NCBI GenBank assembly: GCA_937129145.1
Contig: CAKZMU010000009.1
Coordinates: forward strand, 80,551-144,550
Length of the DNA stretch: 64,000 bases
Origin: an uncultured Lacinutrix sp.
GTDB taxonomy: Bacteria; Bacteroidota; Bacteroidia; Flavobacteriales; Flavobacteriaceae
Direction: 5' to 3'
Part shown: piece by piece, positions 29,701-61,596 of the stretch
Position numbering within the stretch: position 1 is the stretch's first letter
Layout of the letters: each line of letters opens with the position of its first letter
Made by a program: the position numbers and the translations under genes
Notes under the pieces: model-generated
What the model was told of the DNA's origin: nothing
Databases searched by the model: none
What the model saw: the letters and a program-made list of their open reading frames with translations, nothing else

Positions 29701-29706
29701 CAAAAT

Positions 29707-29779: not shown

Positions 29780-29780
29780 C

Positions 29781-29844: not shown

Positions 29845-29848
29845 AAAT

Positions 29849-29931: not shown

Positions 29932-29937
29932 CAAAAT

Positions 29938-30009: not shown

Positions 30010-30014
30010 CACAT

Positions 30015-30100
30015 TGAGATATAGCTTAATTGGTAGAGCGTCGCTCTCATAAGGCGAATGGTTTAGGTTCTCCCGATAGTTATCGGGACTAATATCTCAA
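30015..30100 (+). tRNA. tRNA-Met/Ile2-like (anticodon CAT) with a hairpin insertion in the T-loop
   Basis: Acceptor TGAGATA/TATCTCA, D arm GCTT/GAGC, and anticodon arm TCGCT-CTCATAA-GGCGA. The T-stem is TTAG(G)/(A)CTAA, but the T-loop is TTC followed by the 18-nt hairpin TCCCGATAGTTATCGGGA (30071-30088). Confidence 0.55.
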
Positions 30101-30106
30101 CAACAC

Positions 30107-30179
30107 GCAGGAATGGCGAAACGGCAAACGCACTCGACTTAGAATCGAGAAACTGGGAGTTCGAATCTCTCTTCCTGTA
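30107..30179 (+). tRNA. tRNA-Leu-like (anticodon TAG) with a short (5-nt) variable loop
   Basis: Acceptor GCAGGAA/TTCCTGT, a class-II-like D arm (TGGCGAAACGGCAAACGC), anticodon arm CTCGA-CTTAGAA-TCGAG, variable region of only AAACT, and T arm GGGAG-TTCGAAT-CTCTC. Confidence 0.65.
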
Positions 30180-30180
30180 C

Positions 30181-30246
30181 GAAGTAAGGAAAGAGATGAG
30201 AAGTTTATGCTGAGCGAAGTCGAAGTGAATCTCTCTTCCTGTACGA
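30181..30246 (+). repeat. conserved 46-nt tRNA-trailer element (copy B) plus a 20-nt duplicate of the tRNA-Leu(TAG) 3' end
   Basis: 30181-30226 is GAAGTAAGGAAAGAGATGAGAAGTTTATGCTGAGCGAAGTCGAAGT. 30227-30246 (GAATCTCTCTTCCTGTACGA) exactly repeats 30163-30182. Confidence 0.8.
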
Positions 30247-30247
30247 T

Positions 30248-30321
30248 GCTCCACTAGCCCAAATGGAAGAGGCAACAGTTTTAAGCGCTGTTAAGTCCAA
30301 GTTCGAATCTTGGGTGGAGTA
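30248..30321 (+). tRNA. tRNA-Leu-like (anticodon TAA) with a short variable loop
   Basis: Acceptor GCTCCAC/GTGGAGT (G1:U72), anticodon arm ACAGT-TTTAAGC-GCTGT (alternatively AACAG/CTGTT with a 9-nt loop), variable TAAGT, and T arm CCAAG-TTCGAAT-CTTGG. Confidence 0.6.
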
Positions 30322-30327
30322 CAAAAT

Positions 30328-30451
30328 AAGCTTATGGTGTAATGGAAAGCACACAAGGTTTAGCTCATGCATATCTATTTCAAGAAATAGGTATTCGTGA
30401 ATGCAAAGCATTTCGAACCTTGGAGTATGGGTTCAAGTCCTATTAAGCTTA
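30328..30451 (+). tRNA. tRNA-like gene (probably Arg, anticodon TCG) with a 52-nt insertion in the anticodon loop
   Basis: Acceptor AAGCTTA/TAAGCTT, D arm GTGT/GCAC, anticodon stem CAAGG (30354-58) / CCTTG (30418-22) enclosing 59 nt, and T arm ATGGG-TTCAAGT-CCTAT. The last 7 loop nt, TTTCGAA, form a canonical loop. The insert at 30359-30410 contains the hairpin CTATTTC-AAG-GAAATAG. Confidence 0.55.
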
Positions 30452-30456
30452 CAAAA

Positions 30457-30527
30457 TAACCTGTGGTGTAACGGTAACACTCAAGATTTTGATTCTTGTA
30501 TTATAGGTTCGAATCCTATCAGGTTAT
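30457..30527 (+). tRNA. tRNA-Gln (anticodon TTG)
   Basis: Acceptor TAACCTG/CAGGTTA, D arm GTGT/ACAC, anticodon arm CAAGA-TTTTGAT-TCTTG, and T arm ATAGG-TTCGAAT-CCTAT. Confidence 0.8.
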
Positions 30528-30535
30528 CAAAAAAT

Positions 30536-30608
30536 GGAACAGTAGCAAAGTTGGTCAATGCGTCGGACTGAAAATCTGAAAATACAGGTTCAATTCCTGT
30601 CTGTTCCA
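30536..30608 (+). tRNA. tRNA-Phe (anticodon GAA)
   Basis: Acceptor GGAACAG/CTGTTCC, anticodon arm TCGGA-CTGAAAA-TCTGA, and T arm ACAGG-TTCAATT-CCTGT. Confidence 0.82.
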
Positions 30609-30768
30609 CTAAAATTAAAGATTCCTGCCTATGCAGGAAATAATATCAAGCTGGTCTTGTTGAGTGTTTCGGTATAGCACTATTGTATAAATCGTTGCAG
30701 AAATGCATCATGAGTTTATGTTCAACTAGACTTGAAGGTTTTGACTGTTAACCAAAAAATGGTCTCCC

Positions 30769-30803
30769 CCTATAGGTCGTGGGTTCGACTCCCACTTATC
30801 CCA
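30769..30803 (+). pseudogene. orphan tRNA 3' half (anticodon-stem 3' strand, variable loop, T arm, acceptor 3' strand)
   Basis: CCTAT-AGGTC-GTGGG-TTCGACT-CCCAC-TTATCCC-A. No matching 5' half lies upstream. The complementary 5' half lies 3 nt downstream. Confidence 0.6.
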
Positions 30804-30806
30804 ATT

Positions 30807-30873
30807 GGGATAGTAGTTCAGTGGTTAGAACAATAGGATGTAGGTGTTGCTGGTTCGATTCCAGTCGTTTGCT
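30807..30873 (+). pseudogene. tRNA 5' half (acceptor 5' strand, D arm, anticodon-stem 5' strand) fused to an unrelated T arm and acceptor 3' strand
   Basis: GGGATAG-TA-GTTC-AGTGGTTA-GAAC-A-ATAGG is followed by ATGTAGGTGTT, then GCTGG-TTCGATT-CCAGT-CGTTTGC. The acceptor strands within this unit do not pair. GGGATAG and ATAGG pair perfectly with the upstream fragment at 30769-30803. Confidence 0.55.
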
Positions 30874-30888
30874 TGGAGAAATTCCTTG

Positions 30889-30950
30889 GCAATAGTAGCT
30901 CAATTGGTAGAGCACTGCACTTTTAATGCAGGTTTGGACTCAAAATCCAC
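30889..30950 (+). pseudogene. tRNA-Lys-like (anticodon TTT) fragment lacking a matching acceptor 3' strand
   Basis: GCAATAG-TA-GCTC-AATTGGTA-GAGC-A-CTGCA-CTTTTAA-TGCAG is followed by a degenerate T arm (TGGA-CTCAAAA-TCCA). No CTATTGC-like 3' strand lies downstream. Confidence 0.5.
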
Positions 30951-31450
30951 AATCAAAAGCCCATCATCTTTTAAAACTGATGACCAACGCAGATTGTCAT
31001 TCTGCTCAACAAAAATGACAAAAATAGTAGATTGCAAGTCGGCTTTAGATTCCTGCATTACTGACGCATCGGTCAACACTGGTCGTGGGAATGACAAAAC
31101 TAGAGCAGTCTTGAAAGTGCCTTGAAATACTGATTTTTAATAGTAGAAGTGGTTACTGTTTTGTAATAAGAAATTATATAAATCTGATTATCGATTCATA
31201 TAGTTGTCACAATACTCAGCACTAATTACAGGCACTATTAATATGAGTATTTCCGCACCAGAAAAATGATTTGCTTTCTGCTATTTTTAACAATGAAGAG
31301 ATATAAAAATATACTTCAATTAATGATGAACTCGTCATTGTTTTTTGAAGTTGGTAAGCCTTCCGTTACAAGAATTGCCGCCACGCTCAAAAATGGGCAA
31401 CAATAAATGTTTAATCTTCCTGAAATAAATTCAGGATAAAAAAATTAGAA

Positions 31451-49682: not shown

Positions 49683-50729
49683 TTATATCTTTTTTCTTTG
49701 TTTTTTTAAGGGATTGCTACTTATTTTTTGAAATTCTTCTCGGTTTTTAAAAATTTGAATTCCTGTAAACAGTGCTTCTTTAAACGAACTGTTATCGGCT
49801 TGTCCTTTTCCTGCTATTTCATAAGCTGTTCCGTGGTCTGGAGAGGTTCTCACACCACTAAGTCCAGCAGTGAAATTTACACCTTGACCAAAAGATAGTG
49901 TTTTAAATGGGATGAGTCCTTGGTCGTGATATGCAGCAATAATAGCGTCGAAATTGTTATAATTGTTGGAGCCAAAAAAACTATCGGCCGAATAAGGTCC
50001 AAAAACCAATTTCCCAGTGTCACGTATCTCTACCAATGTTGGTTTTAAAATGTCATCATCTTCGGTTCCAATAACACCATTGTCTCCTGTATGAGGGTTA
50101 ATGCCTAAAACAGCTATTTTTGGCTTTCTAATACCAAAATCTATTTTTAATGTTTTATTAATGGTTTCTATTTTTGATGTAATCAATTCTTTGGTGATTT
50201 TTGATGACACTTCACTCACAGGAACATGGTCCGTTAAAAGTCCCACCTTTAAACTATTGGTAATCATAAACATGAGGCCTTCGCCTTCTAGTTCTTGAGA
50301 TAAATAGTCGGTGTGCCCTGGAAAATTAAAAGAACTTGACTGAATGTTGTGTTTGTTAATTGGTGCTGTTACTAAAACATCAATTTTATTGTTTTTTAAA
50401 TCATTTGTTGCTGTCTTAAAAGATTTTATGGCATACTCACCTATTTTCATATCCTCGTTGCCAAAATTAATGGCCACGTTTTCTTTCCAAACGTTCAGTA
50501 CATTAACTTTACCATGTATAGCCTGTTCTGGTTTATGAATTCCGTTAAAACTTATATCACTTTTAAAATGTGTTTTAAAAAACGCAAATGCTTTATTTGA
50601 CGCGTAAATAATTGGTGTGCAAAAATCAAGAATTCTATTATCCTCAAAAGTTTTAAGAATTATTTCGCCACCAATGCCATTTAAATCCCCAACAGAGATA
50701 CCCACTAAAACTTTTTCCTCTTTTCTCAT
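49683..50729 (-). CDS. pdxA: 4-hydroxythreonine-4-phosphate dehydrogenase
   Basis: Motifs GHTDYL, AAYHDQGLIP and RTSPDHGTA. Confidence 0.9.
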   Translation of the reverse strand: MRKEEKVLVGISVGDLNGIGGEIILKTFEDNRILDFCTPIIYASNKAFAFFKTHFKSDISFNGIHKPEQAIHGKVNVLNVWKENVAINFGNEDMKIGEYAIKSFKTATNDLKNNKIDVLVTAPINKHNIQSSSFNFPGHTDYLSQELEGEGLMFMITNSLKVGLLTDHVPVSEVSSKITKELITSKIETINKTLKIDFGIRKPKIAVLGINPHTGDNGVIGTEDDDILKPTLVEIRDTGKLVFGPYSADSFFGSNNYNNFDAIIAAYHDQGLIPFKTLSFGQGVNFTAGLSGVRTSPDHGTAYEIAGKGQADNSSFKEALFTGIQIFKNREEFQKISSNPLKKQRKKI

Positions 50730-50791: not shown

Positions 50792-51382
50792 ATGTTTACT
50801 GGTATTATAGAAGATATTGGAATAGTTACAAATTTAAAGAAAGAAGGAGATAATATTAGTATAACTATTGAAAGTAGTATAACCAACGAATTAAAAATTG
50901 ACCAAAGTGTTGCCCATAACGGTGTTTGTTTAACTGTTGTAAACATAAAAGATAAAGAATATACAGTAACTGCCATTAAGGAAACCATTGATAAATCTAA
51001 CATAGGTGGTCTAATGGTTGGTGGTTTGGTAAACCTAGAAAGAGCCATGAAGCTTGGTGATAGACTCGACGGACATATAGTTCAAGGGCATGTAGACCAA
51101 GTTGCAACTTGTATAGACGCAAAAGAGCTTGATGGAAGTTGGGAATACACTTTTAGGTATGACGCTTCACTAGAAAACATTACCATCGAAAAAGGTTCTA
51201 TCACTGTTAATGGCGTAAGCCTAACTGTGGTTAATTCTAAAAAAGACACTTTTAGCGTCGCTATTATACCTTATACTCACGAGCACACAAATTTTAATAC
51301 TCTAGCAAATGGAACTATTGTTAATTTGGAATTTGATGTAATAGGGAAATACGTGAGCAAGCTTCAGAAAAAGACAGCTTAA
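50792..51382 (+). CDS. ribE: riboflavin synthase
   Basis: MFTGIIE N-terminus and the duplicated lumazine-binding repeat (GVCLTV / GVSLTV). Confidence 0.92.
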   Translation: MFTGIIEDIGIVTNLKKEGDNISITIESSITNELKIDQSVAHNGVCLTVVNIKDKEYTVTAIKETIDKSNIGGLMVGGLVNLERAMKLGDRLDGHIVQGHVDQVATCIDAKELDGSWEYTFRYDASLENITIEKGSITVNGVSLTVVNSKKDTFSVAIIPYTHEHTNFNTLANGTIVNLEFDVIGKYVSKLQKKTA

Positions 51383-51576
51383 CGTTTAGATTTTGATTTA
51401 ATAAAACCTAAATGTTTTATCGCTCCGTAAACAAGTGCTAAGACAAACACAAAAACTACAGCACCGTCAATAGGCAGTCCAACTGGTGGTGGTCCCGAAG
51501 GCGGCGGCGGTACAGGTCCTCCCTGATAGGCGTAAGCCATATTAGAAAAAACAAATAAGATTTGGGTTATTTTCAT
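51379..51576 (-). CDS. 65-aa protein made of a signal peptide plus a PID-type C-terminal sorting-like domain
   Basis: MKITQILFVFSNMAYA (signal), a Pro/Gly-rich linker, then the motif LPIDG followed by a hydrophobic helix and a basic tail (KSKSKR). Confidence 0.5.
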   Translation of the reverse strand: MKITQILFVFSNMAYAYQGGPVPPPPSGPPPVGLPIDGAVVFVFVLALVYGAIKHLGFIKSKSKR

Positions 51577-51949: not shown

Positions 51950-52254
51950 AATACTACTAATTACAATTATAGAGAGTGTTGTGGAGTAATACGGAGTTTC
52001 GAATAGATTTATTGTTTACTGAAAGAGTAATAAAGAATACTATAGATGTATAAAGGTTTGAGCATCGATTGATTTTTTTATCCTTTTTGTCAAAATTAGA
52101 AAGGCCATTCCTACAAAAGAATAGCCTTTTCATTTTTATATTATATCTATGTCTTTCATAATTTCTAAAGAAACAGGTGCTACTGGGTTAGAAATCATTT
52201 TAAATACTTGATAGAATTTTGCTAATTGCCCCATAGCTATATATAATTTCACTT

Positions 52255-53379
52255 TTAATTGCTTACTAAAAATCCAGAGTTAAATGCATACTGATTCCAT
52301 TTTGGCAATGGATGAAATTCACTCGCCTGCACATCTCTAAACAAACGTTCTAATTCATTTTTACTGTAATAACTTCCACCTCCAATAAGCTCCATGGCAT
52401 ATTTAACTGTGTCAATACAAGCCTCGCTTACATTTGTTTTTAAGCTTAGAATTTCTGATGATAGTTGTTTGGAAGGTGAGAATTCGAGTTCATCTGTACG
52501 TTCATACATGGCTTTCCATTGTACTTTGGCGCTTAAAAATGCATTGTCCAATTTACCTAATACATAAGGCATATGACCTTGATTTGATGTGTTGTTCTTA
52601 GCAAAATTGATGGCAATTTCTCTAGCACGTTCAGCAATACCAATATAAGCAGACATTATTAATGGCATAGCCACTGTGATTACAATATTCCAAACATTAT
52701 GAAACTCATCTTGTGGTCTTTCTAAAGCAATCGCGCTATCTGGAACAAACACGTCTTTTAAAACTACGGTTTGAGAACCTGTTGCTCTCATTCCCATAAC
52801 ATGCCAATCGTCTAATAGACTTAATCCTTCTGTTTTAAAAGGCACTCCAAAATGCAATACTTTGCGCTCACCTCTTTCATTTTCATAAGGTGCTGAAGTC
52901 ACTAATATGTTTCCTGTAGCTGACTGACTCGCAAATGCCTTTTTTGCATTTACCAAATAACCACCCTCTACTTTAGTCATTTCTCCATTAGAACCCAACC
53001 AATCTCTTGCACCTGTACTTACAAGTACTAATTGATTATCTGCAACATTAGCCAATAATGGTTTGCCTGTGTTTTTATGTTTGTATTTCCAAACTGTAGC
53101 AGCCACAAGGTGTTGATGCATTGAAAACGCTAAAGCTGTTGAACCACAATTATTTCCAAATAGTCTAATAATATTACATACTTCAGAGTAAGGCAAACCT
53201 GCTCCTCCTAATTCTTCTGGAACCATTAAAGAGAAAAACTCATTCGCTTTTAACTTCTCGTAATTTTCATAAATGAATTCACCTGTTTTATCTTTTTCTG
53301 ATGCATATTCTGCAAAAGATTGTGCTAAATCATTAGCTATTTTATTCCAATCTGTATTATTTGATGTTACTGTATTCAT
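52255..53379 (-). CDS. acyl-CoA dehydrogenase-fold flavoprotein (possibly an oxygenase rather than a dehydrogenase)
   Basis: 374 aa with ACAD-like three-domain organisation. The C-terminal ERLFRDVQASEFHPLP aligns with the ACAD ERLYRDARITEIYEGT motif, but P replaces the MCAD-type catalytic Glu. Confidence 0.65.
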   Translation of the reverse strand: MNTVTSNNTDWNKIANDLAQSFAEYASEKDKTGEFIYENYEKLKANEFFSLMVPEELGGAGLPYSEVCNIIRLFGNNCGSTALAFSMHQHLVAATVWKYKHKNTGKPLLANVADNQLVLVSTGARDWLGSNGEMTKVEGGYLVNAKKAFASQSATGNILVTSAPYENERGERKVLHFGVPFKTEGLSLLDDWHVMGMRATGSQTVVLKDVFVPDSAIALERPQDEFHNVWNIVITVAMPLIMSAYIGIAERAREIAINFAKNNTSNQGHMPYVLGKLDNAFLSAKVQWKAMYERTDELEFSPSKQLSSEILSLKTNVSEACIDTVKYAMELIGGGSYYSKNELERLFRDVQASEFHPLPKWNQYAFNSGFLVSN

Positions 53380-53414
53380 TATTTCTTGTTTTTTATGATT
53401 AATCCTTTTGATGT

Positions 53415-54923
53415 TTATTGGTTTTGTAATTGTAATACGCTGTCGGTTAGCATCTGTTGATGCACTTTATTACCTTCTTCTTCAACAATATCAATGATCT
53501 CTTCAATGTCTTTTTTAGACGTTCTAAAATTGACGATGCAGCTTCTTAAGCAATAATTTTCGTTGATAATAGCATTAGAAATAAACACTTCTCCGCTTTT
53601 TTGTAATCGCGTTGTTAGTTTTTCGTTTAACTCATTTAAGTACACTTGTTTATTTTCTAAATGTTGAGGTATTTCTGAAGGTATATACCTAAACGTCGCG
53701 ATACTTAAACTTTGGGTTACTGCATCAAGGTTTGGGTGTTGATCTGCTAATTCAAATAATAATTTAGACAACTTTATATCTTCAGATATCATTTCTTGAT
53801 AACCTTGTCTTCCTACTTGCTGAAGCATTAACCATACTTTTAATGCTCTAAATCCTCTAGAATTTTGAAGTCCGTATTCATAATAATTTTGTTCAGCATC
53901 TTCTGTATCAAAATTGAAATACTCTGGATGTGAACTATATGCATCAGTTAAATGTTTTGGGTTTTTAACCAAAGTACAACCAGCTTCTAACGGACTATAC
54001 AACCATTTGTGTGGGTCGATCGCAATAGAGTCTGCTTCTTTTATACCTTTAAAAGTTGCTTCTAATTCTGGAATAATATTGGCTGGTGCACCATAAGCTC
54101 CATCAACGTGAAACCACATATGATACAATTTACAAATGGCCGAAATACCTTCTAAATTATCGACTGTTCCTGTGCTTACATCACCAGCAGTACCAACTAC
54201 AAAAAAGGGTTCATTGCCTTCAATAATATCTGTTGTGATTGCGTTTTCTAATGCTTCTAAATTCATTTTATTATCCGCATCAGTTTCTATCCATCTAATT
54301 GCATTTGTTCCGTGTCCAAATAAAATGGCAGCTTTATCTATCCATGTATGTGTTGACTTTGAACAATACATGATTAGTTTTTTCTTCAAAGAACCAAGGC
54401 CTTCTTCTTTAATATTGGCTGGTGCTTTAGCTGTTCGTGCCGCAAGAAATGCTGTGAAATTTGCCATGTTCCCACCACTAACTAACACACCTCCATAATT
54501 AGATTCTACTCCAATAAATTGTGCTAGCCATTGTATGGTTTGCTTTTCAATTTCTGTTGCCATTGGTGATAATGCAAATGCGCCAACGTTAGGGTTTACC
54601 GAAGCTGCTAACAAATCTCCTAATGCTCCAATTGGTGCTGCTGAACCTGTGATATAACCCATAAATTTTGGGTGGCCATTAAATAATGAATGGTTATACA
54701 ATAAATCTGTAGCTTTCTCTAATAAAACTGATGCAGAGGTTCCGTTTTCTGGAAATGATTGATTACCTAATAGCGACTGTAACTGCTTTGGTGTTTCGCC
54801 AGTCGTAACTGGTCGCTCCGAAATAGTTTCGTTAAAACCAGAGATACTATCTATTAAGTTATGTCCTAAAGATTTAAATTCTTTAGCTGTTAATTCTAAT
54901 GGTGCTTTTCTATTATTCTCCAT
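53415..54923 (-). CDS. PLP-dependent group II amino-acid decarboxylase
   Basis: 502 aa with PLP-lysine motif SIAIDPHKW and HVDGAYGA, typical of the aromatic-amino-acid, glutamate and DABA decarboxylase family. Confidence 0.85.
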   Translation of the reverse strand: MENNRKAPLELTAKEFKSLGHNLIDSISGFNETISERPVTTGETPKQLQSLLGNQSFPENGTSASVLLEKATDLLYNHSLFNGHPKFMGYITGSAAPIGALGDLLAASVNPNVGAFALSPMATEIEKQTIQWLAQFIGVESNYGGVLVSGGNMANFTAFLAARTAKAPANIKEEGLGSLKKKLIMYCSKSTHTWIDKAAILFGHGTNAIRWIETDADNKMNLEALENAITTDIIEGNEPFFVVGTAGDVSTGTVDNLEGISAICKLYHMWFHVDGAYGAPANIIPELEATFKGIKEADSIAIDPHKWLYSPLEAGCTLVKNPKHLTDAYSSHPEYFNFDTEDAEQNYYEYGLQNSRGFRALKVWLMLQQVGRQGYQEMISEDIKLSKLLFELADQHPNLDAVTQSLSIATFRYIPSEIPQHLENKQVYLNELNEKLTTRLQKSGEVFISNAIINENYCLRSCIVNFRTSKKDIEEIIDIVEEEGNKVHQQMLTDSVLQLQNQ

Positions 54924-54950: not shown

Positions 54951-55295
54951 TTAAGCCGCTGTTATTAAAATGCGTTCTATACCAGCAAAGCAATTATTCA
55001 TTATAATCCTGTGTTCTTTTTTTGCTCTTACTAGAAGATTTTTTACTTCAAAAAGAAATGCTTGTAATTGATTTTTTGAGTAGTTTTTATCTTCTATTGC
55101 TTTGCATATTTTCTGAATGCCTTGATAATCATTATCAGCATTAAACTCGGTTTGCATTTTATTAATTTCAGTTTCACTAATATGAATAGAGGTGAAATCG
55201 ATATGATTCTTTTTTGTGAAATTTGAATGCATTAAAAATAAAAGCAGATACACTTTTAGTTCTTCTGTTGTCCATGTTGGTTTATGATTTTTCAT
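54951..55295 (-). CDS. hypothetical protein
   Basis: 114-aa ORF between the LRR gene and the decarboxylase gene. No recognisable motif. Confidence 0.45.
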   Translation of the reverse strand: MKNHKPTWTTEELKVYLLLFLMHSNFTKKNHIDFTSIHISETEINKMQTEFNADNDYQGIQKICKAIEDKNYSKNQLQAFLFEVKNLLVRAKKEHRIIMNNCFAGIERILITAA

Positions 55296-55315: not shown

Positions 55316-56170
55316 TTAATTACAGTTTTCGCCAAAAGCTGAGAAACCATCAATACCTGATGACCAGTTTGCATTACTATAAATAGCATCATCTACTTCA
55401 ATACAATAAAGGTTAGAATTAGACCTTGCTTCAAAATCGGTTAAGCTTCCATTGTTTCCATTCTTTACACTTAGGTTTGTTAGTTGATTATTAGAGACGT
55501 CTAAGTCTTCTAATAAACTGTTTTGGCTTAAATCTAATTCTGTAAGTTGATTATGAGCTACTTTAAACCAATACAAATTCGCACTATTCGTAACATCTAT
55601 ACTGGTTAAAAGGTTATTAGAAGTACCTAATCTTACAAGATTTATATTATTTGCTACATCTAAATCTGTTAATTGGTTATTATCGCAGATTAATACCTCT
55701 AAATTTATGTTGCTTCTAACGTCAATACTCGTTAGACTATTTATATAAGCACTAACAGTTTTCAATTCTAAATTGTTACTTAAATCTAAACTTGTAAGCT
55801 GATTGTCTTCTGTATTTAAATTACTTAACTTTAGATTATCGCTTACATCTAAATTGGTTAAACTATTACCATAACATTCTAACACTTCAAGGTTTGTAAA
55901 TGCATCTATACCTTGTAAACTACTAATGTTTTTCTCTGAAACATCTAACTGAATTACAGCTTCGGCATCTGTGATTAAAATGGTTCCGTTTAAGCCATTG
56001 GTATCTATCCCTAAATCGATTAGGGCTTGTTCAAAATTTGAGTCTGGAATGTTGACTTCCGTTCTTTCTGTTTTTTCTACATCATCATCGTTTTTACTGC
56101 ATGATGAGAACATTGTTAGAGCCATTAATAGGCTTAAAATTGTACGATTTGTTGTATTAAGTGATTTCAT
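55316..56170 (-). CDS. leucine-rich repeat lipoprotein (single LRR module)
   Basis: Lipobox (MFSSC), an IPDSNFEQALIDLGID head, about 22-aa LRRs (LT.LD.S.N..L) and a CIEVDD..YSNANW...F.ENC cap. The module is the same as in the neighbouring 1133-aa ORF. Confidence 0.8.
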   Translation of the reverse strand: MKSLNTTNRTILSLLMALTMFSSCSKNDDDVEKTERTEVNIPDSNFEQALIDLGIDTNGLNGTILITDAEAVIQLDVSEKNISSLQGIDAFTNLEVLECYGNSLTNLDVSDNLKLSNLNTEDNQLTSLDLSNNLELKTVSAYINSLTSIDVRSNINLEVLICDNNQLTDLDVANNINLVRLGTSNNLLTSIDVTNSANLYWFKVAHNQLTELDLSQNSLLEDLDVSNNQLTNLSVKNGNNGSLTDFEARSNSNLYCIEVDDAIYSNANWSSGIDGFSAFGENCN

Positions 56171-56255: not shown

Positions 56256-59200
56256 TTAGTTTACGACCAGTTTCTTTACTGTTTCGCCTAAATTATTTTT
56301 GATATTTACTAAATATATTCCCGAAGGGATTTGACTAACATTAACAGATTGATTGTTGTTAATTGTTGTTGCCAAAATGCTCCTTCCGTTGAAATCATAG
56401 ATTTTTATTTGCGAATCTTCTTGAAGCCCTTTTACATAAAATACCTCTGATGATGGGTTTGGATATAGACTTACAGTATCAAATATGGATTCTTCATTTA
56501 CTCCTAATGATTCACAATTTTCATCAAAACTTGTTTGCGCATCTATATAACTACTCCAAAGTGCGGTACTGTAAGGTGCGTTATCTACTTGAATACAATA
56601 CAGATTGGGATTATTATCTGCTTCAAAATCAGTAATGATAGTGTTATTGCCATTTTTAACATTAAAACTTGTTAGTTGGTTATTGGCAGCATATATTTCA
56701 ATTAGCACTGTATGATTATTTAAATCCATACTTGTTATTTGATTACTTGCAAAACTTAATTCCTCTAAATCAAGATTGTTACTAATATCTAATGTTGTTA
56801 GTTGATTTTCATACAACTCCAGATATGTTAAATCTGGATTATTACTTACATTTATATTTGTAAGTTGACATGTAGAACATGTTAATGATTCTAATAAAAT
56901 GTTGTTAGATACATCTAAACTACCAATTGCATTTCCGCCTGCGTGCAATTCTTTTAATGCTATATTATTTGATATATTTAAACTTGTTAAATCATTATTA
57001 TTACATATTAATATTTCCAAATCTTCAAGACTATTAATGCCTTCCAGATCTTCAATATCATTATTTCCAATTCGTAATTCTATTAAATTTATAAAGCCTT
57101 CTATTCCTGTTGCATTTGAAATATTTTCATTACCTACATCTAGACTTATTACTGCTTCTGCTTCCGACTGAAGAATATTTCCTGTTAAACCATTATTATC
57201 ATATCCTAAATCGATTAAGGCTTGTTCAAAATTTACATCTGGAATAGCAATAGTTGGAAACGGAACGCTACAGTCTTCGCTAAAATTTGTTTGTGGGTCT
57301 ATAAAGGCACTCCAATTTGCATTACTATAGGCAACATCATCTACTTCAATACAGTATAGACTTGGGTTGTTTGTTGCATAGACTCCATCTATATTAACAT
57401 TATTTCCATTTTTTACATTAAGGTTGGTAAGTTGATTATTAGTTATTGATAATTCAAACAATTGAAGATTATTACTAGCATCCATATTTGTAATTTGGTT
57501 ATAACCAATAAGTATTGAAGATAATGCTGTATTGTTTTCAATATTTAAAACTGTTAGTTGATTATTATCTGCTAGCAACTCGTACATGACCATATTGTTC
57601 CCAAGCAATAGTGTTGTTAATTGATTATGACTGCAATCCAATTGTGCAAGCGCTAAATTATTACTTACATCTAAGCTCGTAAGATTATTGTTTTCACATT
57701 GTAGGGCGCTTAAATTTGTAAAGCCTTCAATTCCTAAAAGACTAGAAATATTTTTATTGTTAACATTAAGATTTGTTACCGCTTCGGCTTCACTTTGTAA
57801 AATATCACCTGTAAATCCATTAGTGTCTATACCTAAATCTATGAGTGCTGTTTCAAAATTATCATCTGGAATAGCAATGGTTGGCGCAGATGCATTACAA
57901 TCTTCACTAAAACTAGTTTGTGCATCAATATTCGTCCAATTCGTATTACTATACGCAACATTATCTACATCAATACAAGTTAAATTAGAATTATTTGTTG
58001 TGCTTATACTCGTAAGCATCGTGTTGTTTCCATTTTTTAAGTTTAAACTTGTTAAATTATTATTAGCACAACTAAAAACTGCTAATGCAGGATTATTACT
58101 CAAATCTAAACTTGCTAATTGGTTTCCCCAAACCCTAAAATCTTCTAACAATATGTTATTGCTAACATCTATACTTAAAATTTCTCCATCAGAACAACGT
58201 AATTCTTTTAAATTAATATTCGTATTTACGTTTAAACTGGTGAATAAATTGCTATAACATTGAAGGTATTCTAATGCAGTTGCATTGCTAACATTCAAAT
58301 TAGTAATATCGTTACTATAGCAATACAATGTTTGTAATAAAGAAAGGTTACTTACATCTAAACTTGTGAGTTCATTAGAATGTACATACATAGTTTCTAA
58401 TACAGTATTGTTGCTTACATTTAGATTAGTTAACTGATTAAAAGGCACACTCAAATAAGTTAATAGTGTATTACTACTTATATCTAAACTCGTTAATTGA
58501 CTATTTATGGCTATTAAATATGTTAAGGATGTATTATTGCTAATATCTATACTTGACAGGTTATTGTTACTACAATCTAACGTTTGCAAAGCAGTATTAC
58601 TGCTTAAATTTAAACTCGTCAAATTGTTGTTACTACAAACAATACTAGTAACATTAACAAAACCTTCTATACCTTGTAGAGAATTGATGCCTTTATTATT
58701 TAGTGCTAACGTGTTTACAGCCTCGGCATCAGATTGTAAAATAAGACCATTTATTGTTCCATCACTGTCTTGACCAGCGTCTATAAGTGCTTGTTCAAAA
58801 TTAGAATCTGGAATAGCGACTGTTTGTGCAGTTGTTGCTGCTATAGAAAACATAGTAAATAACATCCAAAACATAGTTTTGCTTTTCAACTTATTCACAC
58901 GTTTTAAATACTCTTTTTTTGTATTGCTTTTTTTAGGAAATGGAACATACATAGGTGTATTTTCTACATAATGCTTATAAAGGTTTCCAAATTCTTTTCG
59001 TAAATCTTTTTCTTCAAAAAAGGTTCCTATAATGAAATATGCCGATAAGAAAATGGCAAAAACAAGATGAGTTCCTGTCATAACTGGTGTAGCCCAAAGT
59101 CCCAACATGCCTCCAAAATAAATTGGATGTCTCATGTACTTATAAAACCCAACCACTTCAAAATTTAATGGTTTATAAGGTTTTTTCATGATCTCGAAAT

Positions 59201-59657
59201 ACACTTGTCTCAAACCAAAGAAATCTAAGTGGTTAATTAAAAATGTACTGATAAATAGAATAGACCATCCAATAAAAAAAAGAGCATACATAAAGTAATT
59301 TAGAGTAATATTAGAAGACACGTCCCATAATAAACCGCCTAATGGTTGCCATTGTATAACCAAAAAGAATAGCAATAAACCAGAGACTAAAATAAAAGTG
59401 CTGCGTTCTATAGCTCTTGGAAAATAGCTAGAGAAAAAATCTTTGAACCATGGTCTTGCCATGATGCTGTGCTGCACTCCAAAAAGAGCAACTAAAACTA
59501 AGTTGTTAAGTAGTGCTAATAAGAATGGCACTCTTGGTTCTTGGTCGATAGATATTTCAGGTATTAAATGACTTACTGATAATATCCAGTATACGATAGA
59601 GGCAAAGCCAACTAAATAGGCCGCGATTGAATAGATTAACATTGTAAAACTTTTCAT
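56256..59657 (-). CDS. in-frame fusion ORF: ICMT/MddA-like membrane methyltransferase (aa 1-245), then an internal signal peptide, three LRR modules and a T9SS C-terminal sorting domain
   Basis: The N-terminal domain is polytopic and has the RHPIYFGG...EEKDL motif of the isoprenylcysteine/phospholipid methyltransferase family. There is an internal ATG at 58874 (MFWMLFTMFSIAATTAQT). LRR modules cover aa 281-588, 592-797 and 801-1048. The C-terminus is SLYPNPSSEVFYV...GIYLVNI. Confidence 0.75.
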   Translation of the reverse strand: MKSFTMLIYSIAAYLVGFASIVYWILSVSHLIPEISIDQEPRVPFLLALLNNLVLVALFGVQHSIMARPWFKDFFSSYFPRAIERSTFILVSGLLLFFLVIQWQPLGGLLWDVSSNITLNYFMYALFFIGWSILFISTFLINHLDFFGLRQVYFEIMKKPYKPLNFEVVGFYKYMRHPIYFGGMLGLWATPVMTGTHLVFAIFLSAYFIIGTFFEEKDLRKEFGNLYKHYVENTPMYVPFPKKSNTKKEYLKRVNKLKSKTMFWMLFTMFSIAATTAQTVAIPDSNFEQALIDAGQDSDGTINGLILQSDAEAVNTLALNNKGINSLQGIEGFVNVTSIVCSNNNLTSLNLSSNTALQTLDCSNNNLSSIDISNNTSLTYLIAINSQLTSLDISSNTLLTYLSVPFNQLTNLNVSNNTVLETMYVHSNELTSLDVSNLSLLQTLYCYSNDITNLNVSNATALEYLQCYSNLFTSLNVNTNINLKELRCSDGEILSIDVSNNILLEDFRVWGNQLASLDLSNNPALAVFSCANNNLTSLNLKNGNNTMLTSISTTNNSNLTCIDVDNVAYSNTNWTNIDAQTSFSEDCNASAPTIAIPDDNFETALIDLGIDTNGFTGDILQSEAEAVTNLNVNNKNISSLLGIEGFTNLSALQCENNNLTSLDVSNNLALAQLDCSHNQLTTLLLGNNMVMYELLADNNQLTVLNIENNTALSSILIGYNQITNMDASNNLQLFELSITNNQLTNLNVKNGNNVNIDGVYATNNPSLYCIEVDDVAYSNANWSAFIDPQTNFSEDCSVPFPTIAIPDVNFEQALIDLGYDNNGLTGNILQSEAEAVISLDVGNENISNATGIEGFINLIELRIGNNDIEDLEGINSLEDLEILICNNNDLTSLNISNNIALKELHAGGNAIGSLDVSNNILLESLTCSTCQLTNINVSNNPDLTYLELYENQLTTLDISNNLDLEELSFASNQITSMDLNNHTVLIEIYAANNQLTSFNVKNGNNTIITDFEADNNPNLYCIQVDNAPYSTALWSSYIDAQTSFDENCESLGVNEESIFDTVSLYPNPSSEVFYVKGLQEDSQIKIYDFNGRSILATTINNNQSVNVSQIPSGIYLVNIKNNLGETVKKLVVN

Positions 59658-59826
59658 GATTATTTATTTTTAAGTTCGAGACAAACATATTCACGAAAAG
59701 AGTGGATAGCACAAAATTTAATGGATACAAATGGGTGACAAGCGCCTAATTTACGGATGACAAATGGGTGACGAAAAGAAAAATAAATTTATTAACTAAT
59801 TAGTAATCAGTATTTTAATAAATTAA

Positions 59827-61596
59827 TTAAAATGTTTTTAAAAAAGCGTCTAAATCTTCTTCAGGTGACAGATTAAGTTTTTTTCTGAGCCTGTTTCGGC
59901 TCTTTTTTACGGAAGAAGGGTTGATATTTTGAAGTGCTGCTATCTGTTTTGTATCTAAATCTAGTTTGATTAATGAACATAATCTTATTTCCGTTTTGGT
60001 TAAACCTTCAAATTGAGTGGTTAACTTATCATAGAACGAACTGCTTAACGCATCTATTTTGGTATAAAAGTCATCTGCACTTTTATCAACCCAAATTTTG
60101 TTTTTTATTTCGGTATCTAATTCCTCTAACTCTTTGGCGCGTTTTCTGCCTGTTGAGGTTTTTAGATTCTCCATACGTTCTGCTAAAGACAAAGCCCATT
60201 CTTGGTTATTAGATATATTAACAGCAAAATTGGTAAGGTCTTTTTTCTTATATTCTATTTCTGAGTTTAATAATTTATTCTGTAAGTCTTTATATTTCAC
60301 ACGTTGTTTATATCGATAGTATAGTAAACTCATTAAGAAAATAGCAGCTAGACTTCCAAAAATTATCCATTGGCTTTTTGCTCTGTTTTTTGTGTTAAGT
60401 AATGAAATCTCTGATTCTTGAGTTTTAAGTTTTTCCTCTGCAATACGCGCTTCTTTAGCTTTAACAATACTGTCTAATCGCATGGTTTTAGCAAATTCCA
60501 TTTGCTGCAACTGCTTACCAACTTCATCTTTTTTTAAGCTATCATTTAAAGTGGCCATTTCTTCATGATATTCTAAAGCTTTAACTTTATTACCTAAAGC
60601 TTTGTATCCACGATATAGACAATCACAAGCGTTTTTCTTTTGTATTAGACTATTTAATTCGAATGCAATTTTGTAACTTCTTGTACAAGTTTCAATACTT
60701 TTTGAATATGCTTTTTGCTCGAGATAAAGTTCACCTAAGTCGATAACAGTTTCGGATATTAATGGTAGACTCCCTATTTTTTCACGAAGCGCTAAGCTTC
60801 TATTGTAATAATTTAATGCCTCCTTAAGACTTCCTTTTTTTTGATAAACATCACCAATATAACCTAGTGATATTGCTTTATTTCTTGCCAATTTAAGTTC
60901 GCTTGTTCGCTTTAAACTTCTATTAAAATAGTCAAGAGCCAAATTATAATCTGCTTGTTTTAAGTAGGACTTCCCTATATTATTGAGAGTTAATGAATTA
61001 TTCTTATCAATTTCCAAACAACGTTGAAAATAGGTTATTGCTTTCTCACTATTACCTTGATCATAATATAAATCACCAATGGTATTTAAAGTAAAAAATG
61101 TTCTGTTGTTATCTCCTAGTTCTTCACGGATTTTCAGGCTTTTTTGTAAGTAATTTAAAGCTTTTATACCATTGCCTATATCACTATAAACGATTCCAAA
61201 TTTATTGTAAGTTGCTGCTATACCTTCTTTATCTCCTAGTTCTTTTTCAATAACAAGTTCTTTTTCAAAATGTCTAAGCGATTCTATATAATTTCCCTTA
61301 ACCCAATTTGCTGTCCCTAAAGCTTTGTGTGCATGAGCAATGTGCTTTTTAGACTTGATATTTGTCGCATAATCGTATTCTATTTTTCCATAGTATATTG
61401 TACTGTCTGGTTCGGTAAATACTATATTCCAAGAGTACTCTCCTAAGGCATTTAACCTTAAACTATCTTGCTTAGTTATATCGTTCCAAACGGATAAAAG
61501 AGAATCCATCTCTATGTCAAAATCAGTTTTATTTTCTTGACCAAAAGAAGAATAGCTAATCAAAAGAAGAAAAAAAAGTATGGCTCGTTTAAACAT
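59827..61596 (-). CDS. TPR-repeat, single-TM, LuxR-type HTH transcriptional regulator
   Basis: Signal peptide, multiple TPR repeats, a TM helix (WIIFGSLAAIFLMSLLYY) and a C-terminal HTH (TEIRLCSLIKLDLDTKQIAALQNINPSSVKKSRNRLRKKL). Confidence 0.8.
   Translation of the reverse strand: MFKRAILFFLLLISYSSFGQENKTDFDIEMDSLLSVWNDITKQDSLRLNALGEYSWNIVFTEPDSTIYYGKIEYDYATNIKSKKHIAHAHKALGTANWVKGNYIESLRHFEKELVIEKELGDKEGIAATYNKFGIVYSDIGNGIKALNYLQKSLKIREELGDNNRTFFTLNTIGDLYYDQGNSEKAITYFQRCLEIDKNNSLTLNNIGKSYLKQADYNLALDYFNRSLKRTSELKLARNKAISLGYIGDVYQKKGSLKEALNYYNRSLALREKIGSLPLISETVIDLGELYLEQKAYSKSIETCTRSYKIAFELNSLIQKKNACDCLYRGYKALGNKVKALEYHEEMATLNDSLKKDEVGKQLQQMEFAKTMRLDSIVKAKEARIAEEKLKTQESEISLLNTKNRAKSQWIIFGSLAAIFLMSLLYYRYKQRVKYKDLQNKLLNSEIEYKKKDLTNFAVNISNNQEWALSLAERMENLKTSTGRKRAKELEELDTEIKNKIWVDKSADDFYTKIDALSSSFYDKLTTQFEGLTKTEIRLCSLIKLDLDTKQIAALQNINPSSVKKSRNRLRKKLNLSPEEDLDAFLKTF

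What the first reader, a model, noticed from the sequence alone, without database searches (positions are those of the whole stretch)
52255..54923. Adjacent PLP decarboxylase and ACAD-fold flavoprotein lacking the MCAD-type catalytic Glu: a possible amine-forming plus amine-oxidising pair
A group II amino-acid decarboxylase (DPHKW PLP-lysine motif) lies directly upstream, on the same strand, of an acyl-CoA-dehydrogenase-fold protein. The C-terminal motif of that protein reads RDVQASEFHPLP, whereas canonical ACADs have RD....IYEGT, so Pro replaces the MCAD-type catalytic base. ACAD-fold enzymes without that Glu include flavin-dependent amine and amino-sugar N-oxygenases. In the valanimycin pathway, a decarboxylase (VlmD) feeds an ACAD-fold isobutylamine N-hydroxylase (VlmH). 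By analogy, this pair could convert an amino acid into an N-hydroxylated or oxidised amine. That assignment is an inference from architecture only. Some genuine ACADs carry the catalytic Glu elsewhere in the fold.
Basis: inference. Interest (0 to 1): 0.55.

Follow-up and report, generated by a model that had tools for sequence, protein, structure and literature searches.

The report
Decarboxylase beside monooxygenase-like flavoprotein, recently joined
Two real neighbouring genes, an aromatic-type amino-acid decarboxylase and a flavoprotein that looks like an oxygen-inserting enzyme rather than a fatty-acid dehydrogenase, were joined only recently in this lineage and usually occur apart, so a dedicated amine-making plus amine-oxidising pair is possible but unproven.

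Summary
On the minus strand, a 502-aa group II PLP decarboxylase (54923..53415) lies 35 nt upstream of a 374-aa ACAD-fold protein (53379..52255). That protein has Pro357 where canonical ACADs have the catalytic Glu, Ala237 at the IVD/LCAD-type alternative position, and His356 aligned with the conserved His of SfnB and HsaA. Its closest solved relatives are 5Z8T and the nitrososynthases.

The decarboxylase lies within 10 kb in 2 of 80 flavoprotein loci. The flavoprotein lies beside the decarboxylase in 1 of 80 decarboxylase loci.

The flavoprotein's ancestral partner is an ExsA_N/AraC regulator with a conserved direct-repeat operator. In the window's subclade the partner is an MddA-like methyltransferase. 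In the window, the flavoprotein gene sits where close relatives carry osmC, and a 37-codon osmC remnant and terminator follow it.

Three things suggest a loose link. Proximity arose three times independently. In Psychroserpens the same AraC operator precedes the decarboxylase operon. The window's five-gene operon shares one conserved promoter.

Best reading: co-regulated members of a modular regulon. Direct amine N-oxygenation has about 0.2 probability.

The parts
59827..61596 (-). Gene for a probable sensor-regulator of 589 aa. It has an N-terminal signal-like segment, TPR repeats, a hydrophobic segment and a C-terminal helix-turn-helix-like tail. It lies directly upstream of the operon.
   Evidence: Pfam finds TPR families. 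A homologous 587-620-aa protein occupies the same position in L080, L052 and L086. The transmembrane and HTH parts were read from the sequence and are inference.
59727..59772 (-). Direct-repeat operator candidate. Two copies of GTCACCCATTTGT lie at 59772..59760 and 59739..59727, 33 nt apart.
   Evidence: TTGTAACCCATTTGTAAC occurs twice at the same place upstream of MddA-like genes in L001, L002, L004, L052, L080 and L086 as well as in the window.
59682..59689 (-). Bacteroidetes-type -7 promoter box, TATGTTTG (TAnnTTTG), about 25 nt upstream of the first ATG of the operon.
   Evidence: The sequence is shown. The equivalent boxes TAGGTTTG, TACGTTTG and TAGATTTG occur at the same position in relatives. 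That TAnnTTTG is the -7 consensus is established knowledge.
56256..59657 (-). First gene of the operon, 1133 aa. An MddA-like (PEMT/ICMT-family) membrane methyltransferase domain of about 260 aa is fused in frame to leucine-rich repeats and a type IX secretion tail.
   Evidence: NCBIfam MddA, E = 2.5e-69, 233 bits against a cutoff of 270; Pfam PEMT. LRR_4 and Por_Secre_tail appear on the identical public gene. The same fusion occurs in L086.
55316..56170 (-). Leucine-rich-repeat lipoprotein gene, 284 aa.
   Evidence: Pfam LRR_4. A homologue lies upstream of the small ORF in L082.
54951..55295 (-). Gene for a 114-aa protein of unknown function with a conserved NDYQxIQKI motif. It ends 27 nt upstream of the decarboxylase gene.
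   Evidence: Homologues lie directly upstream of the decarboxylase in L082, L083, L085 and L086, and two genes downstream of the flavoprotein in L062 and L066. It has no significant Pfam or NCBIfam family.
53415..54923 (-). Group II PLP-dependent amino-acid decarboxylase, 502 aa, of the aromatic-amino-acid-decarboxylase type. The PLP lysine is K306 in DPHKW.
   Evidence: Pfam Pyridoxal_deC, 2e-66. Best solved relative is 4OBU at 1.7e-72, followed by DOPA and tyrosine decarboxylases. The family is 66-81% identical across Bacteroidota.
52255..53379 (-). ACAD-fold flavoprotein, 374 aa, with group-D monooxygenase hallmarks: His356-Pro357 in place of Tyr-Glu, and Ala237 at the alternative Glu site.
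52157..52258 (-). Remnant of the last ~37 codons of an osmC gene, starting at the stop codon of the flavoprotein gene.
   Evidence: tblastn with the OsmC proteins that follow the decarboxylase in L083, L085 and L086 gives 54% identity over residues 147-182 of 184. E = 2e-4 against the whole window and 2e-6 against the 1-kb region.
52100..52129 (-). Terminator-like hairpin (13-bp stem, then a T-rich tail). It is the only such site on the minus strand between 59657 and 52100.

Best explanation
The decarboxylase and the ACAD-fold flavoprotein are the last two genes of a five-gene minus-strand operon. In order, the genes are an MddA-like methyltransferase fused to LRR repeats, an LRR lipoprotein, a 114-aa protein, the decarboxylase and the flavoprotein. 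The operon is driven by one conserved promoter and operator next to a TPR-type regulator.

The flavoprotein belongs to an uncharacterised, highly conserved Bacteroidota family. This family has the fold of acyl-CoA dehydrogenases but the active-site signature of two-component (group D) flavin monooxygenases. It most likely takes reduced flavin from a separately encoded reductase, forms a flavin C4a-hydroperoxide, and oxygenates a nucleophilic heteroatom (N or S) of a small molecule. This mechanism is inferred, not shown.

The decarboxylase is an ordinary member of a widespread Bacteroidota family of aromatic-amino-acid-decarboxylase type.

The two are not an ancient dedicated pair. In this lineage the flavoprotein gene occupies the position where relatives carry osmC downstream of the decarboxylase. 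Both genes belong to a modular set (flavoprotein, 114-aa gene plus decarboxylase, OsmC-type proteins, MddA-like methyltransferase). That set is placed under one AraC-type or TPR-type regulator in different combinations in different genomes.

They are therefore best read as co-regulated accessory functions of one inducible response. A direct substrate-product relation is possible but not demonstrated.
For: Gene identities and motifs:
- Identities, motifs and family conservation.
- No catalytic Glu at either known position, and His356 aligned with the SfnB/HsaA His.
- Profile search of PDB: 5GJ7/5Z8T 1.8e-41, KijD3 5.5e-31, DnmZ 1.8e-24, ORF36 7e-23, MsuC 3.8e-21, best true ACAD 7e-21.

Gene context across genomes:
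- The decarboxylase lies near the flavoprotein in 2 of 80 loci.
- The flavoprotein lies near the decarboxylase in 1 of 80 loci.
- The decarboxylase has no conserved neighbour.
- An AraC regulator lies upstream of the flavoprotein in 52 of 80 loci, or 49 of the 73 with enough flank.

AraC operator:
- The operator TGrACTTyTnAGnmAA-N4-TTGrACTTTTnAGCAAAG occurs in 35 of 41 AraC-flavoprotein spacers.
- The same operator lies upstream of the 115-aa gene plus decarboxylase and of osmC in L083, L084 and L085, and upstream of an MddA-like gene in L110.

The window's subclade:
- It is monophyletic and has an MddA-like gene upstream instead of AraC.
- It carries a conserved TGTAACCCATTTGTAAC x2 operator that is also present in the window.

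Local history and operon structure:
- osmC remnant and terminator after the flavoprotein gene.
- Relatives show TPR-MddA-flavoprotein (L080, L052) or TPR-MddA::LRR-small-decarboxylase-OsmC (L086).
- Intergenic gaps are 20-85 nt, with no minus-strand terminator inside the operon.
Against: - No biochemical data exist for any member of the flavoprotein family. The nearest solved structure is only 27-28% identical and its own function could not be traced.
- No flavin reductase was found in the window. The window is only 64 kb and not every ORF was scanned.
- The regulon is inferred from operator motifs, not from expression data.
- The window has neither the AraC gene nor the AraC operator, so its membership in that regulon is by homology of the cargo genes only.
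- Three independent juxtapositions of the two genes exceed my rough chance expectation: about 0.4 events in 81 genomes for a +-10 kb neighbourhood, assuming one copy per 4-5 Mb genome (inference). A tighter functional link than 'parallel members' therefore cannot be excluded.
Confidence: 0.45

Rival explanations
1. Dedicated two-step pathway. The decarboxylase makes a primary amine (probably phenethylamine, tyramine or tryptamine). The flavoprotein N-oxygenates it to a hydroxylamine, nitroso compound or oxime, like VlmD/VlmH in valanimycin biosynthesis.
For: - The closest characterised relatives of the flavoprotein, by profile and by fold, are amine N-oxygenases (KijD3, DnmZ, ORF36).
- Isobutylamine N-monooxygenase is listed in the same group D of flavin monooxygenases (PMC6165268).
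- The genes are adjacent and probably co-transcribed in the window.
- Proximity arose independently in a Balneolaceae MAG and in a Saprospiraceae MAG. In the Balneolaceae MAG (L015) the order is AraC operator, flavoprotein, decarboxylase, DNA_alkylation-like gene, PdxH-like gene. In the Saprospiraceae MAG (L017) the two genes are 1.7 kb apart.
- A Flavobacteriaceae decarboxylase, DisA, does produce aromatic amines (PMC9605681).
Against: - The two genes are not co-conserved: 2 of 80 and 1 of 80 loci.
- Most flavoprotein genes sit alone behind their AraC regulator. In the window's own subclade they sit behind an MddA-like gene with no decarboxylase.
- The decarboxylases next to the flavoprotein are ordinary orthologues. 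The window's is 80% identical to the Psychroserpens one, which has OsmC instead.
- The window arrangement is a recent replacement of osmC.
- Identity to nitrososynthases is only 19-23%. Those enzymes act on dTDP-amino sugars.
Confidence: 0.2
2. The flavoprotein is a sulfur oxygenase that works with the MddA-like methyltransferase at the head of the operon. A thiol such as methanethiol is S-methylated, and the thioether is then oxidised to sulfoxide or sulfone. The decarboxylase is an unrelated passenger.
For: - An MddA-like gene lies directly upstream of the flavoprotein gene in all six other loci with enough upstream flank in the window's subclade (L001, L002, L004, L052 and L080, plus L003, where the MddA-like gene is cut by the contig end). 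These come from different families and share one conserved operator.
- The same pairing appears independently in L076 (AraC operator, MddA-like, flavoprotein) and, at four genes' distance, in L041.
- The AraC operator also precedes an MddA-like gene in L110 and a 137-aa gene that I take, from its sequence alone, to be DsrE-like (the DsrE-like assignment is inference).
- ACAD-fold enzymes that oxygenate sulfur are known: DszC, TdsC, MsuC, and Dms1-3, which oxidise DMS to DMSO and DMSO2 (PMC13352529).
Against: - S-oxygenases score about ten orders of magnitude worse than nitrososynthases in the profile search.
- The methyltransferase scores 233-245 bits against the MddA cutoff of 270, so its substrate is not certain.
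- Most family members (AraC type) have no MddA-like neighbour.
Confidence: 0.2
3. The 374-aa protein is a genuine acyl-CoA or acyl-carrier-protein dehydrogenase whose catalytic base lies somewhere unusual. The neighbourhood has no bearing on its function.
For: - All three Pfam ACAD domains are detected.
- The best NCBIfam hit is the Rv1679/FadE16 family.
Against: - There is no Glu at the MCAD position (Pro357) or the IVD/LCAD position (Ala237), and both residues are invariant in the family.
- His356 matches the monooxygenase His.
- All NCBIfam hits fall far below their cutoffs, for example 84 bits against 600.
- Monooxygenases outrank ACADs in profile and fold searches.
- No ETF, thioesterase, ligase or beta-oxidation genes are conserved nearby.
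Confidence: 0.04

Closest known systems
Nitrososynthases / amino-sugar N-oxygenases KijD3, ORF36 and DnmZ (group D flavin monooxygenases)
   Different: Identity is only 19-23%. Those enzymes act on dTDP-amino sugars inside antibiotic gene clusters. Here there are no sugar or natural-product genes. The conserved partner is instead an AraC regulator or an MddA-like methyltransferase.
PDB 5Z8T / 5GJ7 ('flavin-containing monooxygenase'; 'acyl-CoA dehydrogenase type 2 domain protein')
   Different: I could not find its substrate or a paper on it in the library. At 27% identity, function cannot be transferred.
VlmD / VlmH (valine decarboxylase plus isobutylamine N-hydroxylase, valanimycin pathway)
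   Same: Both are a decarboxylase next to an ACAD-fold, Glu-less flavoenzyme. Isobutylamine N-monooxygenase is listed in group D (PMC6165268).
   Different: The comparison is by analogy only, because no VlmH or VlmD sequence was compared here. The pair is not co-conserved. There is no partner reductase and no downstream pathway genes. The window arrangement is a recent gene replacement.
[quoted passage not shown]
   Same: All are group II PLP decarboxylases. 4OBU is the best solved match (1.7e-72). DisA is a Flavobacteriaceae enzyme shown to convert Phe, Trp and Tyr to their amines (PMC9605681). A Cellulophaga homologue is reported next to an AsnC- or AraC-family regulator (PMC12787093 supplement).
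   Different: The substrate of the window enzyme is unknown.
MddA plus ACAD-fold sulfur oxygenases (DszC/TdsC, MsuC, Dms1-3 of Acinetobacter baylyi)
   Same: The operon starts with an MddA-like methyltransferase. ACAD-fold two-component enzymes oxidise DMS, DMSO, sulfinates and thiophenes (PMC13352529). They are significant profile matches (about 1e-20).
   Different: They are weaker matches than the nitrososynthases. The methyltransferase scores below the MddA family cutoff. No MddA-oxygenase pair turned up in one targeted search of the paper library.

Membership tests
Bona fide acyl-CoA dehydrogenase (MCAD/SCAD/IVD type) | Three-domain ACAD fold (N-terminal helical, middle beta, C-terminal helical) | tested here: met
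Bona fide acyl-CoA dehydrogenase (MCAD/SCAD/IVD type) | Catalytic Glu in the C-terminal Y-E-G-T motif (MCAD Glu376 position) | tested here: not met
   Pro357 aligns with the Glu of 'IYEG' in a canonical Clostridium ACAD. FHPLP is invariant in 25 family members.
Bona fide acyl-CoA dehydrogenase (MCAD/SCAD/IVD type) | Alternative catalytic Glu on helix G (IVD Glu254 / LCAD Glu261 position, equivalent to MCAD Thr255) | tested here: not met
   The column before the conserved Arg/Pro of helix G holds an invariant Ala237. Mapping of that column to MCAD Thr255 rests on established knowledge of the FDKTRP motif plus alignment A3.
Bona fide acyl-CoA dehydrogenase (MCAD/SCAD/IVD type) | Acyl-CoA binding and electron transfer to ETF | not testable with these tools
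   No ETF or beta-oxidation genes are conserved nearby. This is context only.
Group D two-component flavin-dependent monooxygenases (DszC, HpaH-C2, HsaA, SfnB, nitrososynthases) | ACAD fold without the catalytic Glu, and a conserved His in the C-terminal motif | tested here: met
   His356 aligns with the His of SfnB 'LHD' and HsaA 'VHA' and is invariant. That this His is catalytically important in DszC and C2 comes from my own knowledge and was not tested.
Group D two-component flavin-dependent monooxygenases (DszC, HpaH-C2, HsaA, SfnB, nitrososynthases) | Closer in sequence and structure to known monooxygenases than to dehydrogenases | tested here: met
Group D two-component flavin-dependent monooxygenases (DszC, HpaH-C2, HsaA, SfnB, nitrososynthases) | Ser/Thr hydrogen-bonding flavin N5 to stabilise the C4a-hydroperoxide (PMC10696468) | tested here: inconclusive
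   Invariant Ser121-Thr122 in the STGARDW motif are candidates. I could not inspect the model coordinates.
Group D two-component flavin-dependent monooxygenases (DszC, HpaH-C2, HsaA, SfnB, nitrososynthases) | A partner NAD(P)H:flavin reductase | tested here: inconclusive
   None was found among 38 window ORFs scanned with Pfam or among conserved neighbours in 80 loci. Reductases are often encoded elsewhere and shared (PMC13352529).
Group D two-component flavin-dependent monooxygenases (DszC, HpaH-C2, HsaA, SfnB, nitrososynthases) | O2- and reduced-flavin-dependent oxygenation of a substrate | not testable with these tools
   Needs enzyme assays.
Decarboxylase plus ACAD-fold N-hydroxylase pair (VlmD/VlmH-like) | The two genes adjacent and co-transcribed | tested here: met
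   The gap is 35 nt on the same strand, with no terminator between them.
Decarboxylase plus ACAD-fold N-hydroxylase pair (VlmD/VlmH-like) | The two genes co-conserved across genomes | tested here: not met
   2 of 80 loci and 1 of 80 loci. The three juxtapositions are independent and scattered in the tree.
Decarboxylase plus ACAD-fold N-hydroxylase pair (VlmD/VlmH-like) | Dedicated flavin reductase and downstream pathway genes in the cluster | tested here: not met
   The operon partners are an MddA-like methyltransferase, LRR proteins and a 114-aa protein. The flank consists of housekeeping genes.
Group II PLP-dependent amino-acid decarboxylase, aromatic type | Pyridoxal_deC domain with the PLP-binding Lys in the D-x-H-K motif | tested here: met
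   Pfam 2e-66. D303-P-H-K306-W is invariant.
Group II PLP-dependent amino-acid decarboxylase, aromatic type | Aromatic amino acid as substrate | not testable with these tools
   The best solved matches are annotated DOPA and tyrosine decarboxylases and 4OBU, which I recall as a tryptophan decarboxylase. NCBIfam's best hits are diaminobutyrate and aspartate decarboxylases, far below their cutoffs. DisA orthology is untested.
MddA methanethiol S-methyltransferase (first gene of the operon) | Score above the NCBIfam equivalog cutoff | tested here: not met
   233 bits against a cutoff of 270, although full length with E = 2.5e-69. It is therefore 'MddA-like' only.

The most novel reading that the evidence does not exclude
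Bacteroidota carry a modular, regulator-controlled detoxification or signalling unit. Its constant core is an ACAD-fold heteroatom oxygenase. That core is teamed, in different genomes, with an amine-forming aromatic amino-acid decarboxylase or a thiol S-methyltransferase. In this window all three sit in one operon. The flavoprotein would then oxygenate the small nucleophiles its partners make (aromatic amines to hydroxylamines or oximes, or methyl thioethers to sulfoxides). This would be an unrecognised route to N- or S-oxygenated volatiles in marine Flavobacteriaceae.
Probability: 0.2. Interest if true: 0.6.

Novelty: new member of a known kind. Interest (0 to 1): 0.35.

Why it matters
If the flavoprotein oxygenates the decarboxylase's amine, marine Bacteroidota would have a simple two-gene route from aromatic amino acids to hydroxylamines, oximes or nitro compounds. 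The bacterial origin of such compounds is, to my knowledge, poorly understood.

If it instead oxidises the product of the MddA-like methyltransferase, it would add a step to dimethylsulfide cycling in a major marine phylum.

Either way, the comparison defines an uncharacterised and widely conserved flavoprotein family. It also defines two candidate operators and their regulators, all of which are directly testable.

As it stands, the finding is a lineage-specific gene adjacency, not a new system.

Tried and rejected
- Literature search for PDB codes 5GJ7/5Z8T and for 'acyl-CoA dehydrogenase type 2' found nothing on the closest structure's function.
- A search for the DisA sequence or accession in two papers and their supplements found none, so orthology of the decarboxylase with DisA is untested.
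- A word-indexed homologue search with the 114-aa protein returned only itself. Its single-sequence AF2 model was unusable (pLDDT 47.6), so no fold search was done.
- A plasmid tblastn, run to obtain a DszC sequence, did not list one. An SfnB, an HsaA and a Clostridium ACAD were used as references instead.
- A scan of the window with the AraC-operator matrix gave a best score of 9.8, far from the operon. One composition-preserving shuffle reached 19.5, so there is no site in the window. There is also no AraC gene in the window.
- I looked for RteC or excisionase remnants in the 870-bp gap after the flavoprotein gene, because such genes follow it in L082 and L095. None was found.
- I looked for a flavin reductase among 38 window ORFs. 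None was found.
- Rfam found only tRNAs in the window.
- The AFDB fold library was not available.
- I considered cysteine-sulfinate, glutamate or methionine decarboxylase identities for the decarboxylase. CSAD, GAD and GADL1 match about 30 orders of magnitude worse than the top match 4OBU (about 20 worse than 7XIN, the best chain annotated as an aromatic decarboxylase), and no methionine decarboxylase appeared. I therefore set these aside.


Full report
OBSERVATION

The finding's coordinates match two minus-strand ORFs exactly. One is a 502-aa protein (54923..53415). The other is a 374-aa protein (53379..52255), 35 nt downstream.

The first is a group II PLP decarboxylase. It hits Pfam Pyridoxal_deC at 2e-66. 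DPHKW lies at residues 303-307 and is invariant in 20 homologues.

The second gives weak hits to all three ACAD domains. Its NCBIfam hits are a mix of dehydrogenases and oxygenases (FadE16, SfnB, the HpaH oxygenase component, DszC), all far below their cutoffs. RDVQASEFHPLP lies at residues 348-359.

Both genes are intact and occur identically on public contigs.

WHAT THE FLAVOPROTEIN IS

The protein belongs to a tight family in Bacteroidota and relatives. The best 120 clusters are 57-89% identical to it, and 3629 hits have E <= 0.001. Conserved blocks include TALAFSMHQHL, STGARDWL and FRDVQA..FHPLP.W.

I aligned it with a canonical Clostridium ACAD, an SfnB and an HsaA taken from annotated plasmids.
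- Pro357 falls in the column of the catalytic Glu ('IYEG').
- His356 falls in the column of the His of SfnB ('LHD') and HsaA ('VHA').
- The helix-G position that holds the alternative Glu in IVD and LCAD is an invariant Ala237.

A profile of the family ranks PDB chains as follows:
- 5GJ7/5Z8T ('flavin-containing monooxygenase'): 1.8e-41
- KijD3: 5.5e-31
- DnmZ: 1.8e-24
- ORF36: 7e-23
- MsuC: 3.8e-21
- best true ACAD: 7e-21
- HpaH-C2 and DszC: about 1e-20
- SCAD-type ACADs: about 1e-17

The margin is modest. Together with the motif evidence, though, the protein is best described as a group-D-type, two-component flavin monooxygenase-like enzyme. Its nearest characterised relatives oxidise amines. 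Group D is known to include isobutylamine N-monooxygenase, nitrososynthases, DszC, IacA and XiaF (PMC6165268).

No flavin reductase was found among 38 window ORFs scanned.

WHAT THE DECARBOXYLASE IS

It belongs to a very conserved Bacteroidota family, with 66-81% identity among the best 120 clusters. The best solved relatives are 4OBU (1.7e-72), which I recall to be the Ruminococcus gnavus tryptophan decarboxylase, followed by DOPA and tyrosine decarboxylases. CSAD, GAD and GADL1 score much worse.

A Flavobacteriaceae aromatic amino-acid decarboxylase, DisA of Tenacibaculum discolor, has been shown to make phenethylamine, tryptamine and tyramine (PMC9605681). I could not obtain its sequence, so orthology is untested.

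CO-CONSERVATION

A scan of one genome per species returned 80 loci of the flavoprotein family with up to 10 kb on each side. The decarboxylase is present in only two of them:
- L015, a Balneolaceae MAG, where it is immediately downstream.
- L017, a Saprospiraceae MAG, where it is 1.7 kb upstream.

A metagenome scan returned 80 loci of the decarboxylase family. The flavoprotein is adjacent in one, L095, which belongs to the same lineage as L082 and is 81% identical in DNA to the window.

The decarboxylase has no conserved neighbour at all. Decarboxylases that sit next to the flavoprotein are ordinary orthologues. The window's is 80% identical to the Psychroserpens one (which lacks the flavoprotein) and 79% to L082's.

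WHAT THE FLAVOPROTEIN IS REALLY ASSOCIATED WITH

In 52 of 80 loci, an ExsA_N-type AraC regulator of about 288 aa lies upstream on the same strand (49 of the 73 loci with enough flank).

The spacer carries a conserved direct repeat, TGrACTTyTnAGnmAA-N4-TTGrACTTTTnAGCAAAG, followed by a TTTG-containing promoter box. It occurs in 35 of 41 spacers.

Across all loci, 63 such sites score at least 22. They precede:
- the flavoprotein gene (44 sites);
- a 115-aa gene plus the decarboxylase (3 sites: L083, L084, L085, Psychroserpens-like);
- an osmC gene just downstream of that decarboxylase (3 sites);
- a second OsmC-type gene (2 sites);
- an MddA-like gene (1 site, L110);
- a 137-aa gene that I take, from sequence alone, to be DsrE-like (2 sites);
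- a 202-aa gene (2 sites);
- a few others.

The AraC next to the Psychroserpens decarboxylase is 54% identical to one next to a Flagellimonas flavoprotein. The two enzymes are therefore members of one regulon in different genomes. This is a real link, but a loose one.

THE WINDOW'S OWN HISTORY

A neighbour-joining tree places the window's flavoprotein in a monophyletic subclade with L001-L004, L052, L080 and L082. In this subclade the AraC regulator is absent, and where enough upstream flank is held an MddA-like methyltransferase gene lies directly upstream of the flavoprotein gene (L082's contig ends before that point).

Upstream of that gene lies a second conserved operator, TTGTAACCCATTTGTAAC repeated twice, plus a TAnnTTTG box, next to a TPR-type regulator gene. 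The same elements are in the window at 59772..59727 and 59689..59682.

Relatives show two arrangements:
- TPR regulator, MddA-like, flavoprotein (L080, L052).
- TPR regulator, MddA-like::LRR, small ORF, decarboxylase, OsmC (L086).

The window combines the two: TPR regulator, MddA-like::LRR, LRR lipoprotein, 114-aa ORF, decarboxylase, flavoprotein.

Starting at the flavoprotein's stop codon is a 37-codon remnant of the C-terminus of that osmC gene. It is 54% identical, with E = 2e-4 against the whole window and 2e-6 locally. It is followed by the only minus-strand terminator-like hairpin in the region.

The flavoprotein gene therefore took the place of most of osmC. The adjacency with the decarboxylase is young.

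The window has no AraC gene and no AraC operator.

HOW MUCH OF A LINK REMAINS

Proximity of the two genes arose at three separate places in the flavoprotein tree: the window plus L082, L015, and L017.

Assume one decarboxylase gene per 4-5 Mb genome. A +-10 kb neighbourhood then captures it by chance in about 0.4% of genomes, or about 0.4 events in 81. Three events are more than expected. This is my estimate and is inference.

In L015 the AraC operator (score 40.8) precedes an apparent operon of flavoprotein, decarboxylase, a DNA_alkylation-family protein and a PdxH-like protein.

The MddA-like link is at least as strong. It is inherited through a subclade that spans several families, and it appears independently in L076 and L041. 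ACAD-fold enzymes that oxidise DMS and DMSO are now known (PMC13352529).

CONCLUSION

The two genes are real and probably co-transcribed. The flavoprotein is monooxygenase-like rather than a dehydrogenase.

The most likely reading (about 0.45) is that they are co-regulated but separable members of a modular inducible regulon. In that reading the flavoprotein uses reduced flavin and O2 to oxygenate a small nucleophile.

Probabilities for the alternatives:
- Direct N-oxygenation of the decarboxylase's amine: about 0.2.
- S-oxygenation coupled to the MddA-like methyltransferase: about 0.2.
- A true ACAD: about 0.04.

None of these can be settled without assays.

Caveats:
- Neighbour analyses used a simple ATG-only ORF caller of my own.
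- The 80 loci per scan are the best matches, so distant relatives are under-sampled.
- The operators and regulon are inferred from sequence conservation only.

Noticed in passing
window 29628-30955 (+): Dense tRNA array. ARAGORN finds Cys, Asp, Glu, Leu(tag), Leu(taa), Gln and Phe within 1 kb. Rfam adds three weaker tRNA-like matches (29871-29931, 30020-30078, 30889-30955). The two 'tRNA-Leu' genes are only 74-75 nt, so they lack the long variable arm expected of bacterial tRNA-Leu.
   Followed up: no
window 56256-59657 (-): An MddA-like membrane methyltransferase domain is fused in one 1133-aa reading frame to three blocks of leucine-rich repeats and a type IX secretion tail. An internal signal-peptide-like stretch lies at the junction. 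The same fusion (1149 aa) is in L086, whereas L080 and L052 have the stand-alone 244-254-aa methyltransferase.
   Followed up: partly
window 51379-51576 (-): A 65-aa ORF in the otherwise non-coding 870-bp gap. It has a signal-like N-terminus, a Pro-rich stretch, then 'LPIDG' plus a hydrophobic helix and a basic tail. This resembles a PEP-CTERM or PID-CTERM-type sorting signal with almost no cargo.
   Followed up: no
L005-L078 (AraC-flavoprotein spacers); L083 7351-7388 and 9554-9591; L085 9534-9571, 11551-11588 and 7474-7511 (-); L110 15012-15049: Conserved 38-nt direct-repeat operator candidate, TGrACTTyTnAGnmAA-N4-TTGrACTTTTnAGCAAAG. It is associated with an ExsA_N-type AraC regulator across Bacteroidota and defines a small regulon.
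   Followed up: yes
L082 3950-6043; L095 2981-3322: In the window's nearest relative, the flavoprotein gene is followed by RteC, an HTH_17 (excisionase-like) gene and further genes typical of Bacteroidetes conjugative transposons. DNA homology to the window stops exactly at the flavoprotein stop codon.
   Followed up: partly
L015 9043-14000: A Balneolaceae MAG has an apparent operon of AraC, operator, flavoprotein, decarboxylase, DNA_alkylation-family protein and PdxH-like protein. A PLP-salvage-type gene is thus linked to the PLP enzyme.
   Followed up: partly
window 27148-27570 (-) and 27638-28240 (+): An intact OsmC-family gene lies divergent from a carboxymuconolactone-decarboxylase (AhpD-like) family gene elsewhere in the window. 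The genome therefore keeps an OsmC-type protein although the copy after the decarboxylase was destroyed.
   Followed up: no
window 49683-50729 (-) and 50792-51382 (+): pdxA (PLP biosynthesis) and riboflavin synthase (flavin biosynthesis) lie just beyond the operon's end. This is probably a coincidence of housekeeping genes, but both cofactors are the ones the two enzymes need.
   Followed up: no
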